Virus record (IMG/VR): IMGVR_UViG_2531839524_000005
DNA length: 34,440 nucleotides
Origin: a virus
Taxonomy: Duplodnaviria; Heunggongvirae; Uroviricota; Caudoviricetes
Direction: 5' to 3' (one strand)
In this document: in pieces, positions 5,339 through 7,055 of the stretch
Numbering within the stretch: the stretch's first letter is position 1
Layout of the letters: the number at the start of each line of letters is the position of its first letter
Made by a program: the position numbers and the translations under genes
Notes under the pieces: model-generated
Databases searched by the model: none
What the model saw: only the letters and a program-made list of their open reading frames with translations
What the model was told of the DNA's origin: nothing

Positions 5339-6130
5339 ATGAGCGAGAAATTGAAGATCGGCTATCGCCCTTTACAAGAACTGTCTCCGTATGCACACAA
5401 CGCCAGGACACACAGCCCTGAGCAGGTGGCACAACTGGTAGAAAGCATTAAGCAATTCGGCTGGACTAATCCGGTGCTGATTGATGAAAAGGGCGAAATT
5501 ATTGCTGGTCACGGTCGCGTTATGGCGGCTGAAGTGCTCAAAATGGATTCCATTCCGGTCATCGTTCTGTCTGGTTTGATGGATGATCAGAAAAAGGCGT
5601 ACCGCCTGGCAGATAATCGCCTGCCGATGAATGCTGGCTGGGATGAAGATCTGTTACGGATGGAGCTGTCGGACCTAATCAATGCTGATTTTGATGTCTC
5701 CCTGACAGGCTTCAGCCCGACAGAAATTGATGAACTGTTGACGGATGTTTTGCCCGGTACAGGAAATGAGGAGGAGCCGTATACGACGAAAATTGATACG
5801 CCTGTTTATGAGCCGTCGGGCGGTAAACCGGATATCAGTGAACTGTACGACGATACGAAAACTCAGGAGCTGATCAGCCGGATACGTTCGGCGTCCCTTG
5901 ATCCTGATATTGAGAAATTCCTCCTGTGTGCGGCAGAACGTCACACGGTGTTTAATTTCAGCAGAATTGCGGACTATTACGCTCACGCCCCCGCTGAAAT
6001 TCAGTGCCTTTTCGAGGATTCGGCGCTGGTGATCATTGATTATCAGCAGGCTATTGAAAATGGATTTGTCCGGATGACGCAGCGCATGGTGGAGATCATG
6101 CATGGCGGGGAGGAGGAGGAATATGCGTGA
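5339..6130 (+). CDS. ParB-like nuclease domain protein (ParB N-terminal/sulfiredoxin-like)
   Basis: 263 aa. N-terminal ...PLQELSPYAHNARTHSPEQVAQLVESIKQFGWTNPVLIDEKGEIIAGHGRVMAA... matches the ParB N-terminal domain pattern (recalled). Acidic C-terminus. Preceded by a terminator-like hairpin plus T-tract. Confidence 0.65.
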   Translation: MSEKLKIGYRPLQELSPYAHNARTHSPEQVAQLVESIKQFGWTNPVLIDEKGEIIAGHGRVMAAEVLKMDSIPVIVLSGLMDDQKKAYRLADNRLPMNAGWDEDLLRMELSDLINADFDVSLTGFSPTEIDELLTDVLPGTGNEEEPYTTKIDTPVYEPSGGKPDISELYDDTKTQELISRIRSASLDPDIEKFLLCAAERHTVFNFSRIADYYAHAPAEIQCLFEDSALVIIDYQQAIENGFVRMTQRMVEIMHGGEEEEYA

Positions 6131-7055
6131 TGATTTTTGCGCCTTTATTCTGACTCACGGGCGACCGGACAAAGTTCTGACTTACCGGACGTTGCGTCGT
6201 GCTGGCTATACCGGGAAAATTTTTATCGTTGTTGATGATGAAGATAAGACACGGCATCAGTACATAGCTGAATTTGGTGAACAGGTGCTGGTGTTTTCCA
6301 AATCCGATATCGCCAGTCGTTTTGACGAAGCCGATAATTTCGGTGACCGCCGCTCAATTTTTTACGCCCGTAATGCTTGTTTCGACCTGGCAAAACTGGT
6401 CGGGTGTAAATTCTTCATTCAGCTCGATGATGATTATCACGAGTTCCAGTTTCGGGTGGATCGCAACTATGACCAGGCCTATTTTCCGATAAGAAAACTG
6501 GATGCGATCCTTTCTGAAATGCTGGCGTACTACGAATCAATACCTGCGCTTTCCATCGCTATGTCGCAGGGCGGGGATTTTCTTGGTGACAATGGCGGCC
6601 ATGCTTCGTGGGTGAAACGCAAGGCAATGAACAGCTTTATCTGTTCGGTTGATCGACCGTTCTCATTCATGGGACGCATTAACGAGGATGTGAATACGTA
6701 CACGAATCTCGGTCGCTGTGGTGAATTGTTTATGACGATCGGTGCTGTCCAGTTAGGGCAGAAACAGACGCAGAAAAACAGCGGCGGAATGACCGAGCTG
6801 TATCTGGATTCCGGAACCTACGTTAAAAGTTTTTACTCCGTCATGTATGCGCCGTCGTGCGTAAAAATCTCACTGATGGGTGCCAGCCATAAACGCATTC
6901 ACCATCAGGTCACCTGGAACAACGCTGCAGTAAAAATCCTTCACGAAAAATACAGGAAGAAGACACCCTGCATATCAATGGGGGTGACAAATGATTCCGT
7001 ATTCGAAAGTCGAGTCTCTGGCAGCGTGCCGGATGACTGCACAACAAATCGCTGA
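6123..7055 (+). CDS. Hypothetical enzyme with GT-A glycosyltransferase-like acidic motifs (function unverified)
   Basis: ATG at 6123 with AGGAGGAGGA RBS, overlapping the ParB-like stop (translational coupling). Motifs AFILTHGRPDKV, FIVVDDED and IQLDDDYHEF resemble nucleotide-sugar transferase DxD-type signatures; inference from motifs only. Its 3' end overlaps the next gene by 65 nt. Confidence 0.4.
   Translation: MRDDFCAFILTHGRPDKVLTYRTLRRAGYTGKIFIVVDDEDKTRHQYIAEFGEQVLVFSKSDIASRFDEADNFGDRRSIFYARNACFDLAKLVGCKFFIQLDDDYHEFQFRVDRNYDQAYFPIRKLDAILSEMLAYYESIPALSIAMSQGGDFLGDNGGHASWVKRKAMNSFICSVDRPFSFMGRINEDVNTYTNLGRCGELFMTIGAVQLGQKQTQKNSGGMTELYLDSGTYVKSFYSVMYAPSCVKISLMGASHKRIHHQVTWNNAAVKILHEKYRKKTPCISMGVTNDSVFESRVSGSVPDDCTTNR

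What the first reader, a model, noticed from the sequence alone, without database searches (positions are those of the whole stretch)
5339..7055. ParB-like nuclease gene translationally coupled to a gene with glycosyltransferase-like DxD motifs, just upstream of the terminase
Seen: the two ORFs overlap (ParB-like stop at 6128..6130, partner ATG at 6123 behind an AGGAGGAGGA RBS), implying co-expression. The partner carries acidic motifs (FIVVDDED, IQLDDDYHEF) and an N-terminal strand-loop (AFILTHGRPDKV) reminiscent of GT-A nucleotide-sugar transferases. Established: ParB-like nuclease-domain proteins near phage packaging genes are frequently paired with DNA-modifying enzymes such as methyltransferases. 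Inference: a candidate DNA-modification or anti-restriction module of an uncommon type, or a packaging accessory. No hydroxymethylase-type partner is visible in the window, so DNA glycosylation is speculative.
Basis: partly seen in the sequence, partly recalled or inferred. Interest (0 to 1): 0.6.

Follow-up and report, generated by a model that had tools for sequence, protein, structure and literature searches.

The report
ParB-tethered sugar transferase pair in prophage
A Rac-like E. coli prophage carries, just before its DNA-packaging genes, a widespread two-gene unit: a DNA-type sugar-transferase (TAGT family) and an undescribed partner domain fused to a ParB-like module. No enzyme that makes the usual hydroxymethyl acceptor base is present, so it may add an unknown sugar mark to phage DNA.

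Summary
ORF 5339-6130 (263 aa, ParB/Srx N-domain) overlaps ORF 6123-7055 (310 aa) by 8 nt. The second protein is a GT-A glycosyltransferase of Pfam TAGT (PF20691, 2.5e-35), the family of phage, T-even and base-J DNA sugar transferases.

New here: the constant partner of this TAGT subfamily is not the ParB domain. It is the C-terminal ~120 aa of the upstream protein ("domain X"), which matches no Pfam, NCBIfam, PADLOC or PDB entry. X lies directly upstream of TAGT in phages of Proteobacteria, Bacteroidota, Firmicutes, Actinobacteria and haloarchaea. It is either fused to a ParB-like module, usually just upstream of terminase genes of many families, or stand-alone inside replication gene clusters.

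The complete pair is in 889 of 5,426 complete E. coli genomes; K-12 ynaK is its remnant. No TET/JBP, hydroxymethylase or first sugar transferase accompanies it.

Best reading (about 0.5): a late-expressed, self-contained DNA glycosyltransferase holoenzyme with an unknown acceptor. Rivals include protein or self-glycosylation and an unrecognised hydroxymethyl-base source. It is a new variant of a known kind, and directly testable.

The parts
5339..6130 (+). Gene for the 263-aa ParB-X protein (intact form of E. coli ynaK)
   Evidence: ORF. Hits: Pfam ParB_N 2.7e-6, phrog_620 3.8e-88. PGAP annotates only its first 258 nt, as a 'pseudogene'.
5339..5623 (+). ParB/Srx-fold N-domain (res 1-95) with the NxR, GHGR and DN motifs
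   Evidence: Pfam ParB_N covers res 23-84; TIGR00180 covers res 12-93. In 101 family representatives G57 is kept in 96%, R60 in 83% and N93 in 79%.
5624..5758 (+). Acidic helical linker (res 96-140, 'LTGF' region), shared with ParB-methyltransferase fusions
   Evidence: phrog_498 'DNA methyltransferase' matches res 3-141 at 6e-50. PADLOC MTase_II matches res 7-144 at 4.4e-38. pI 4.05.
5780..5830 (+). Invariant peptide Y148-T-T-K-I-D-T-P155-V-Y157-E-P-S-G-G-K-P164 at the start of domain X
   Evidence: Y148, P155 and Y157 are 100% conserved, [TS]149 100% and P164 98% among 101 cluster representatives. pLDDT is low when modelled alone.
5819..6028 (+). Helical core of domain X (ParB-X res ~161-230)
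6014..6067 (+). Conserved C-terminal segment of X (EDSALVIIDYQQAIENGF)
   Evidence: E, L, D and G are invariant in A2. Low pLDDT when modelled alone, so it is inferred to be a partner-binding or dimerisation element.
6109..6120 (+). GGAGGAGGAGGA Shine-Dalgarno run for the TAGT gene, which also encodes the acidic tail of ParB-X
   Evidence: Read from the sequence. Acidic tails (EDxxDDEE) recur in homologues.
6123..7055 (+). Gene for the 310-aa TAGT-family GT-A glycosyltransferase
   Evidence: Pfam PF20691 2.5e-35; phrog_842 9e-103. More than 8000 homologues. In the AF2 model, residues 1-215 have block-mean pLDDT mostly 87-98, with dips to 59-77 at residues ~61-80 and ~151-170. Foldseek hits GT-A enzymes with probability 1.0.
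6426..6434 (+). DDD (D102-D104) metal and nucleotide-sugar motif
   Evidence: Invariant in 55 homologues, together with R14, N187 and D189. It matches the R...DDD...ED active-site pattern reported for phage GT-A DNA transferases and base-J GT (bioRxiv 10.1101/2023.12.21.572611).
6768..6992 (+). Very conserved, basic C-terminal segment of TAGT (res 216-290)
   Evidence: Many invariant residues (T216, Q217, GGMT, Y227, GTY, K235, R258, H261, W265). pI 9.7. pLDDT 39-68 when modelled alone. Inferred to be the interface with acidic X and/or with nucleic acid.
6991..7242 (+). Small ORF (83 aa; PGAP start at 7033) between TAGT and the terminase small subunit, overlapping the non-conserved TAGT tail
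   Evidence: phrog_309 (terminase small subunit region) 2.5e-22. It travels with the cassette in enterobacterial loci only.
7246..9655 (+). Terminase small (7246-8337) and large (8327-9655) subunit genes, immediately downstream
   Evidence: Pfam Terminase_2 and Terminase_6N; phrog_51 and phrog_2.

Best explanation
The two genes encode a self-contained, late-expressed nucleic-acid glycosyltransferase holoenzyme.

- **Catalytic subunit.** The 310-aa TAGT protein uses a host nucleotide-sugar, held through its DDD/Mn2+ site.
- **Accessory subunit.** The C-terminal domain X of the upstream protein is an obligatory partner that docks on the transferase. The acidic X would meet the basic, conserved C-terminal segment of TAGT.
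- **Delivery module.** In small and temperate phages X is fused to a ParB/Srx N-domain. The same module is fused to DNA methyltransferases elsewhere. It would deliver or switch on the enzyme on double-stranded phage DNA, as ParB-like activators do for phage thymine dioxygenases.
- **Stoichiometry.** Translational coupling through the 8-nt overlap would keep the two proteins in fixed proportion.
- **Timing and purpose.** The pair is made with the packaging genes, so concatemeric phage DNA would be sugar-marked before or during packaging. That would shield it from restriction or other DNA-targeting defences in the next host.

Shown: family membership, fold, motif conservation, obligate X-TAGT linkage, gene contexts, and the absence of known acceptor-making enzymes.

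Inferred: the physical complex, DNA as substrate, the acceptor atom, and the protective role.
For: **The transferase belongs to a DNA-modifying family.**
- TAGT family membership and GT-A fold are established, with invariant R14, D102-104, N187 and D189; E188 is conserved in at least 90%.
- Characterised relatives transfer sugars onto DNA: the T2/T6 enzyme, 5mYOX-associated phage GT-A enzymes and base-J GT.

**X is the constant partner.**
- X lies immediately upstream of TAGT in all 121 loci examined. In 110 of them the genes overlap by 8 or 11 nt.
- In all 7 look-ups that started from stand-alone X proteins, TAGT was the next gene or next but one.
- X is 42-56% and TAGT 50-58% identical between E. 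coli and Bacteroides, Firmicutes and Desulfovibrionaceae phages. The ParB part is often undetectable by tblastn.
- X is always C-terminal, with two length classes.

**The ParB module is a DNA-enzyme module.**
- The ParB-N plus linker region equals the N-terminal module of phage ParB-methyltransferase fusions.

**The gene contexts are DNA transactions.**
- The pair sits directly upstream of terS/terL of at least five different terminase families.
- In large phages it sits between DNA polymerase, primase and helicase genes.

**The substrate must be universal.**
- The cassette rides with unrelated virion modules and reaches an archaeal virus, HHTV-2.

**Precedent and physical hints.**
- ParB-like proteins lacking a DNA-binding domain activate a phage DNA dioxygenase on dsDNA (PMC13229309).
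- X is acidic and the TAGT C-terminal segment is basic; both have low pLDDT when modelled alone.
Against: - No known acceptor is available. The prophage from ttcA to uspF has no annotated TET/JBP, ThyA-like hydroxymethylase, primary glucosyltransferase or DNA methyltransferase.
- The 31.8-kb phage c5 has no unassigned ORF larger than 209 aa.
- Twenty diverse loci share no third partner.
- Direct glycosylation of canonical DNA by a GT-A enzyme has no precedent that I know of.
- A TAGT-related domain (GREB1) glycosylates a protein (PMC7968844).
- No complex model could be computed.
- No biochemical or sequencing evidence of modified DNA for any phage carrying this pair was found in the literature searched.
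- The ParB P-motif arginine is missing in about 17% of family members.
Confidence: 0.5

Rival explanations
1. Protein glycosylation. The transferase glycosylates a protein. The most specific version is that it glycosylates the invariant Tyr/Thr peptide of its own partner X (a glycogenin-like primed glycoprotein). Alternatively it glycosylates another phage or host protein.
For: - The most conserved element of the upstream protein is a predicted-disordered peptide with 100% conserved Y148, [ST]149 and Y157.
- The TAGT-related GREB1 domain O-GlcNAcylates a protein (PMC7968844).
- Glycogenins and peptide glycosyltransferases are among the structural neighbours.
- No DNA acceptor is evident.
Against: - The structural matches are generic GT-A (TM 0.3-0.46).
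- The cassette travels with unrelated capsid, tail and terminase families and sits in replisome clusters in large phages. This argues against a virion-protein substrate.
- The ParB module shared with DNA methyltransferases points to DNA.
- Self-glycosylation has no obvious benefit for a phage.
Confidence: 0.15
2. Classical TAGT chemistry. The enzyme glycosylates 5-hydroxymethyl-pyrimidines (or a first sugar) made by an unrecognised, very divergent enzyme encoded elsewhere in the phage or host.
For: - All characterised DNA-acting relatives use hydroxymethyl or sugar hydroxyl acceptors.
- Thousands of phage 5mYOX-like sequences escape the TET/JBP Pfam model (PMC13229309).
- Some loci with stand-alone X carry C5 DNA methylases or nucleotide-metabolism genes.
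Against: - Complete small genomes have no room for such an enzyme. Phage c5 has 50 ORFs and its largest unassigned ORF is 209 aa.
- In the Rac-like prophage, the two sizeable unassigned proteins in the early region (310 and 184 aa) are encoded on the opposite strand and have no Pfam match. No oxygenase or ThyA-like annotation appears anywhere, though the structural half has many unscanned 'hypothetical' proteins.
- No recurrent third gene is found in 20 diverse loci.
- E. coli makes no hydroxymethyl-pyrimidines in DNA (established knowledge).
Confidence: 0.1
3. Non-DNA target. The pair glycosylates RNA (for example tRNA hydroxyl-bearing bases or 2'-OH), a nucleotide, or a small signalling molecule, as a host-takeover or anti-defence function.
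For: - RNA and nucleotides offer hydroxyl acceptors that canonical DNA lacks.
- A nucleoside-glycosylating GT-A (AvpGT with Ara-A) is among the closest solved structures.
- ParB/Srx folds bind NTPs and serve non-DNA roles in some proteins (PMC12704722).
- The prophage carries two tRNA genes.
Against: - No specific link to RNA or signalling genes appears in any neighbourhood.
- The similarity to AvpGT is generic.
- The recurrent neighbours are terminase and replisome genes.
Confidence: 0.1
4. Packaging accessory. The ParB-like protein acts as a nuclease or a pac/cos-binding helper of terminase, and the transferase-like protein is structural or regulatory rather than catalytic.
For: - In small phages the position directly upstream of terS/terL, or next to cos, is strikingly constant.
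- In Nocardia phage NTR1, TerL follows directly with no annotated small subunit.
Against: - The catalytic residues of the transferase are invariant across phyla.
- The pair occurs far from terminase, in replication clusters and without a ParB domain, in large phages.
- It accompanies at least five unrelated terminase families, so a specific protein-protein role in packaging is unlikely.
Confidence: 0.05

Closest known systems
TAGT family (Pfam PF20691): T2/T6 beta-glucosyl-HMC-alpha-glucosyltransferase and TET/5mYOX-associated phage GT-A DNA glycosyltransferases; distantly trypanosome base-J glucosyltransferase and GREB1
   Same: Same Pfam family (122.7 bits), GT-A fold, and R...DDD...ED active-site pattern. 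Phage-encoded.
   Different: - No hydroxymethylase, 5mYOX or first glucosyltransferase accompanies it.
- The T-even enzymes are too distant to be found by tblastn at 1e-5.
- This subfamily is always paired with domain X, which I did not find described in the literature searched.
- The database label 'beta-glucosyl-HMC-alpha-glucosyltransferase' on such genes is a family-level transfer, not a demonstrated activity.
'Solitary' TAGT homologues noted in 288 of 753 TAGT-encoding phage genomes (PMC13216743) and the ~65% of phage GT contigs without a neighbouring base-modification enzyme (bioRxiv 10.1101/2023.12.21.572611)
   Same: This gene is one of these. Those authors also leave the function undefined.
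   Different: Those surveys do not describe the obligatory X partner, the ParB-X fusion, the conserved gene overlap, or the two alternative contexts (upstream of terminase versus replisome cluster).
ParB-dependent phage thymine dioxygenases (5mYOX176/ParB176; PMC13229309)
   Same: A ParB-like protein with an N-terminal NTP-binding-type domain, a short helical segment, a long linker and a small C-terminal domain. It has no HTH DNA-binding domain and is encoded next to a post-replicative DNA-modifying enzyme, often near terminase genes.
   Different: - The partner enzyme is a glycosyltransferase, not a dioxygenase.
- Homology between X and the ParB176 C-terminal domain could not be tested because no sequence was available.
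- Here the C-terminal domain also exists alone, with the enzyme and without any ParB domain.
Phage ParB-DNA methyltransferase fusions (phrog_498; PADLOC MTase_II; PMC12704722)
   Same: The N-terminal ~140 residues are homologous (6e-50 and 4.4e-38). They occupy the same kind of genome position in prophages and embody the same idea of a ParB module attached to a DNA-modifying enzyme.
   Different: The enzyme is attached non-covalently through X rather than fused, and it is a sugar transferase rather than a methyltransferase.
E. coli K-12 Rac prophage gene ynaK
   Same: Same locus and same gene; the window is 100% identical to 'ynaK'-annotated regions of other E. coli strains.
   Different: K-12 YnaK is an 87-aa N-terminal remnant (my own knowledge of the K-12 annotation). 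Here the gene is intact at 263 aa and still has its transferase partner and the full virion module.

Membership tests
TAGT (PF20691) GT-A DNA glycosyltransferases | Sequence match above the curated family threshold | tested here: met
   122.7 bits against a cut-off of 27.5, covering res 8-222 and profile positions 4-205 of 205. phrog_842 9e-103.
TAGT (PF20691) GT-A DNA glycosyltransferases | GT-A (Rossmann-like) fold | tested here: met
   In the AF2 model, residues 1-215 have block-mean pLDDT mostly 87-98, with two lower stretches. Fifty-nine PDB hits at E<=1e-3, and the hits listed are all GT-A-fold nucleotide-sugar enzymes (GalNAc-T, SpsA, GnT-I, AvpGT, glycogenin) with probability 0.93-1.0.
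TAGT (PF20691) GT-A DNA glycosyltransferases | Active-site pattern R...DDD...ED | tested here: met
   R14, D102-D104 and D189 are invariant and E188 is at least 90% conserved in 55 homologues. The pattern is as described in bioRxiv 10.1101/2023.12.21.572611. The residue after ED is V, not Y/F.
TAGT (PF20691) GT-A DNA glycosyltransferases | Genomic association with a source of the acceptor (TET/JBP 5mYOX, dCMP/dUMP hydroxymethylase, or a first glucosyltransferase) | tested here: not met
   None is present in the whole prophage, in phage c5, or recurrently in 20 loci.
TAGT (PF20691) GT-A DNA glycosyltransferases | Transfer of a sugar onto DNA | not testable with these tools
   Needs LC-MS of nucleosides or an in-vitro assay.
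ParB/Srx superfamily (ParB_N, PF02195) | Sequence match and the GxxR P-motif | tested here: met
   27.7 bits against a cut-off of 26.3; TIGR00180 6.9e-9, which is below its cut-off; GHGR at res 57-60. In 101 relatives G is kept in 96% and R in 83%.
Canonical partition ParB | HTH DNA-binding domain, ParA partner and parS | tested here: not met
   No HTH or dimerisation-domain Pfam hit. No parA is annotated in the prophage. The TIGR00180 score is far below its cut-off.
ParB-like nuclease | Demonstrated or motif-supported nuclease activity | not testable with these tools
   Only the name of the family suggests it; there is no independent evidence.
ParB-activated DNA-modifying enzyme systems (5mYOX-ParB type) | ParB-like protein without a DNA-binding domain, encoded next to and required by a post-replicative DNA-modifying enzyme | tested here: inconclusive
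   The architecture and adjacency are met. The enzyme class differs, and dependence cannot be tested here.
ParB-DNA methyltransferase fusions | ParB-N module plus a methyltransferase domain in one protein | tested here: not met
   The N-module is homologous, but the C-terminal part is domain X and no MTase domain is present.

The most novel reading that the evidence does not exclude
The X-TAGT pair is a self-sufficient system that puts a sugar directly on canonical, non-hydroxymethylated DNA. That would be a chemically new DNA modification. It would be present in temperate phages of many bacterial phyla and of haloarchaea, and in about one in six E. coli genomes. Domain X would supply the base-engaging or acceptor-activating element, and the ParB module would gate the reaction on phage DNA.
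Probability: 0.3. Interest if true: 0.85.

Novelty: new variant of a known kind. Interest (0 to 1): 0.62.

Why it matters
If the pair does modify DNA, then a very common class of E. coli prophages (the intact relatives of Rac) carries a sugar modification nobody has looked for. So do many phages of gut Bacteroides, lactobacilli, actinobacteria, vibrios and haloarchaea. The modification would be made without the hydroxymethyl-pyrimidine step that all known DNA glycosylation requires.

That would bear on several practical matters:
- restriction and type IV (GmrSD/BrxU-like) defence specificity;
- nanopore and PacBio signal interpretation for prophage DNA;
- phage-therapy host range;
- enzyme tools for DNA labelling.

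It would also extend the recently recognised role of ParB-like proteins as partners of DNA-modifying enzymes from dioxygenases and methyltransferases to glycosyltransferases. Finally, it gives a function-linked definition to an unannotated domain family of about 1,400 cluster representatives at 50% identity.

Even on the conservative reading, two annotations need correcting: the 'ynaK pseudogene' call and the 'beta-glucosyl-HMC-alpha-glucosyltransferase' label.

Tried and rejected
No natural X-TAGT fusion exists among the top 150 X proteins. The one fused database entry (P0081) is an error-ridden read assembly and was not used.
- **The afdb50 fold library was unavailable**, so structural closeness to base-J GT and GREB1 could not be checked directly.
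- **The key computational paper** (Iyer et al. 2013, NAR 41:7635, PMC3763556) is not held. I cannot exclude that it already mentions ParB-linked TAGT genes without TET/JBP.
- **Literature searches** for TAGT+ParB, ynaK, PF20691 and 'glucosyl-HMC'+ParB found no study of this pair.
- **Search for a third conserved gene.** A Pfam scan of 129 neighbouring proteins from 20 diverse loci found no family in more than 3 loci, and no TET/JBP or thymidylate-synthase-like family among the families listed. Only the top 25 of 82 families were shown, so single occurrences cannot be excluded.
- **Virion-protein glycosylation** was considered and rated low: the cassette accompanies unrelated structural modules and sits in replisome clusters in large phages.
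- **Glycosylation of DNA 3' ends** was considered and rejected, because cos phages with this cassette must ligate their ends.
- **The promoter/terminator scan** gave nothing notable for the pair.
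Full report
**1.
ORF 5339-6130 encodes 263 aa and ends with TGA at 6128-6130. The next ORF starts at ATG 6123, an 8-nt overlap, behind GGAGGAGGAGGA (6109-6120), and runs to 7055. An upstream ATG at 6102 is possible, but homologues from many taxa begin at MRDDF, which corresponds to 6123. 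The quoted motifs are present. The terminase small subunit (7246-8337) and large subunit (8327-9655) follow.

**2. Where the window comes from.**
The region is 100% identical to several E. coli chromosomes. It lies in a Rac-like prophage integrated at ttcA, with intR, xisR, ralR, recET and kilR on its left arm. The window is 99.96% identical to strain F9792 up to position 34100.

At least 80% of the 1,717-bp region is present in 889 of 5,426 complete E. coli genomes, and parts of it in 1,566. RefSeq labels the first gene 'ynaK', and in the exact-match genome annotates only its first 258 nt, as a pseudogene. K-12 YnaK is a truncated remnant of this gene (my own knowledge of the K-12 annotation).

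**3. What the two proteins are.**

*Protein 2.* It matches Pfam TAGT (TET-associated glycosyltransferase, PF20691) at 2.5e-35, and phrog_842 at 9e-103.
- Its AF2 model has a largely confident N-terminal 215 residues.
- The solved structures listed by Foldseek are all GT-A-fold nucleotide-sugar enzymes, with probability 0.93-1.0.
- R14, D102-104, N187 and D189 are invariant in 55 homologues.
- This fits the R...DDD...ED active site reported for phage GT-A DNA glycosyltransferases and base-J glucosyltransferase (bioRxiv 10.1101/2023.12.21.572611).

*Protein 1.* It has a ParB/Srx N-domain (Pfam 27.7 bits against a cut-off of 26.3; TIGR00180 6.9e-9). Its first ~140 residues are the module found at the N-terminus of phage ParB-DNA-methyltransferase fusions (phrog_498 6e-50; PADLOC MTase_II 4.4e-38).

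**4. The real conserved unit is domain X plus TAGT.**
tblastn of the parts of protein 1 against 121 related loci gave a clear pattern.
- The C-terminal ~120 residues ("X") are always found immediately upstream of the TAGT gene.
- X is 42-56% identical in loci from Bacteroides, Dysgonomonas, Lachnospiraceae, Faecousia, Desulfovibrionaceae, Prosthecochloris, Hyphomonadaceae and others.
- The ParB part often falls below detection in those same loci.
- The X-protein stop overlaps the TAGT start by 8 nt in 95 loci and by 11 nt in 15.

X also exists as a stand-alone 95-160 aa protein. In all seven look-ups that started from such proteins, TAGT was the next gene, or in one case the next but one.

A profile of X finds 1,412 cluster representatives at 50% identity. 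Among the 150 best hits X ends at or near the C-terminus in nearly all. They fall into two length classes, about 130-190 aa and about 240-310 aa. Of 101 long ones, 36 reach Pfam ParB_N and 3 reach GmrSD_N; the ParB motifs are visible in most.

X has no match in Pfam, NCBIfam, PADLOC or PDB sequences, and none by fold.
- Its model has a confident helical core.
- The two most conserved stretches have low confidence when modelled alone. These are the peptide Y148-[ST]-x-K-[IV]-x-x-P155-x-Y157-x-P...K-P164 and the segment SALVIIDxxxAIExG.
- The very conserved, basic C-terminal segment of TAGT (res 216-290, pI 9.7) also has low confidence alone, and X is acidic (pI 4.35).

I infer a co-folding heteromeric complex, but could not model it.

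**5. Contexts.**

*Small and temperate phages.* The ParB-X/TAGT pair usually sits directly upstream of the terminase genes, whatever their family.

| Terminase type or phage | Source |
|---|---|
| Terminase_2 / Terminase_6N (this window) | |
| Lambda GpA type | |
| Terminase_4 / TerL_ATPase | |
| T7-like and Terminase_3 with GP3 or Sf6-type small subunits | |
| Lactobacillus phage phi jlb1 | |
| Nocardia phage NTR1 | |
| Lactobacillus phage c5 (first two genes after cos) | |
| Haloarchaeal virus HHTV-2 (about 3 kb upstream of TerL) | |

*Large phages.* Stand-alone X plus TAGT lies in replication clusters.
- In one locus it is right after the DNA polymerase gene and near a primase gene.
- In 191-kb Vibrio phages it lies between primase, exonuclease and helicase genes.
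- SAM-methyltransferase-like genes sometimes sit beside it.

Both kinds of context are DNA transactions. The accompanying virion modules are unrelated, which argues for a universal substrate.

**6. What is missing.**
The prophage from ttcA to uspF has no annotated dioxygenase, hydroxymethylase, first glucosyltransferase or DNA methyltransferase. The two larger unassigned proteins in its early region have no Pfam match. Phage c5 (31.8 kb, 50 ORFs) has no unassigned ORF above 209 aa. A Pfam scan of 129 neighbouring proteins from 20 diverse loci found no recurrent third partner. The pair is therefore self-contained, or it uses something every host provides.

**7. Literature.**
- TAGT enzymes of T2/T6 add a second glucose to glucosyl-5hmC. 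'Solitary' TAGT homologues occur in 288 of 753 TAGT-encoding phage genomes, with function undefined (PMC13216743; PMC13390438).
- Phage GT-A enzymes next to methyltransferase/TET genes glycosylate 5hmC. About 65% of mined GT contigs lack a neighbouring base-modifying enzyme, and ParB-like genes were noted among the neighbours (bioRxiv 2023.12.21.572611).
- ParB-like proteins lacking a DNA-binding domain activate a subclass of phage thymine dioxygenases on dsDNA (PMC13229309).
- ParB folds fused to methyltransferases are enriched in prophages (PMC12704722).
- Earlier authors proposed that ParB proteins direct DNA-modifying enzymes during packaging (cited in PMC8256090).
- GREB1, a TAGT-related domain, glycosylates a protein (PMC7968844).
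- I found no study of the ParB-X/TAGT pair or of domain X. The 2013 paper that defined TAGT could not be read.

**8. Mechanism, with likelihoods.**

| Reading | Confidence |
|---|---|
| DNA glycosyltransferase holoenzyme (best) | about 0.5 |
| Protein glycosylation or self-glycosylation of the invariant Tyr/Thr peptide | 0.15 |
| Classical hydroxymethyl acceptor made by an unrecognised enzyme | 0.10 |
| RNA, nucleotide or small-molecule target | 0.10 |
| Non-catalytic packaging accessory | 0.05 |

On the best reading, TAGT is the catalytic subunit and X the obligatory accessory subunit. The ParB/Srx module, where present, loads or switches the enzyme on phage dsDNA. The pair is expressed with the packaging genes, so that DNA is sugar-marked before encapsidation, for protection in the next host.

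Family, fold, motifs, linkage and contexts are shown. The complex, DNA as substrate, the acceptor and the benefit are inferred. The main weakness is that no acceptor chemistry is known for unmodified DNA.

**9. Novelty and score.**
The gene families are known, and solitary TAGTs and ParB neighbours have been remarked on. New here are four things:
- the X domain as the constant partner;
- its two architectures;
- the conserved overlap and contexts;
- the demonstration that complete small genomes lack any acceptor-making enzyme.

I rate it a new variant of a known kind, with interest 0.62. The most novel reading not excluded is direct glycosylation of canonical DNA, with probability about 0.3.

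Noticed in passing
window 5339-6130 (RefSeq NZ_CP024273.1 1455548-1455805): PGAP annotates only the first 258 nt of this intact 263-aa gene, as 'ynaK, pseudogene, missing C-terminus'. This leaves domain X unannotated. The probable cause is that the reference K-12 YnaK is itself a truncated remnant.
   Followed up: partly
window 25114-26289 (+): A 386-391 aa ORF inside the baseplate/tail gene block carries only the N-terminal domains of a type I restriction R subunit (HSDR_N 5e-14, HSDR_N_2 2e-9). PGAP names it 'type I restriction endonuclease'. Its location is odd for such a domain.
   Followed up: partly
window 9674-11110 (+): PGAP names the portal gene 'anti-CBASS protein Acb1 family protein', but it matches Pfam Phage_portal_3 (6e-13). 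This is probably a naming artefact.
   Followed up: partly
window 34143-34212 (-) and 33126-33905 (-): An exact RNA-OUT (IS10 antisense RNA, 97 bits) is present. The window stops matching strain F9792 after 34100, inside ompN, whose ORF is shortened to 259 aa. This indicates an IS10 insertion in ompN in the source strain.
   Followed up: partly
window 2312-2384 and 2391-2462 (+): Two adjacent prophage tRNA genes, annotated Thr and Gly in the matching genome, lie downstream of the Q-like antiterminator region.
   Followed up: no
window 3038-3464 (+) (L001 17700-18126): A TerB-family (tellurite-resistance-like) gene is annotated as frameshifted, just upstream of the lysis genes.
   Followed up: no
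proteins P0008, P0027, P0034, P0036, P0038, P0039 (E. coli relatives of window 6123-7055): Many E. coli copies of the transferase gene are truncated and fused in frame to terminase-small-subunit or tail-protein sequence. These are different deletion end-points of decaying prophages.
   Followed up: partly
L111 17837-20316 and L112 8659-11138: A phage that has the ParB-X/TAGT pair upstream of its terminase also has four consecutive GT2-family glycosyltransferase genes after the capsid gene. This could be a separate virion-glycosylation module.
   Followed up: no
L113 8394-9209; L123 4354-5007: SAM-methyltransferase-like genes (Methyltransf_25/23/11; Methyltransf_21) lie between or directly before stand-alone X and TAGT. 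They might tailor the transferred sugar.
   Followed up: no
E. coli K-12 ynaK (literature): In an overexpression screen, the truncated K-12 ynaK raised the MICs of six unrelated antibiotics 3- to 6-fold (PMC12924614). This is unexplained and concerns only the ParB N-domain fragment.
   Followed up: no
window 5283-5325 (+): By eye, a GC-rich inverted repeat (CCCGC...GCGGG) followed by TTTTTT lies just before the ParB-X start codon. The simple scan did not call it because the loop is long. It may be a terminator that late antitermination reads through.
   Followed up: no
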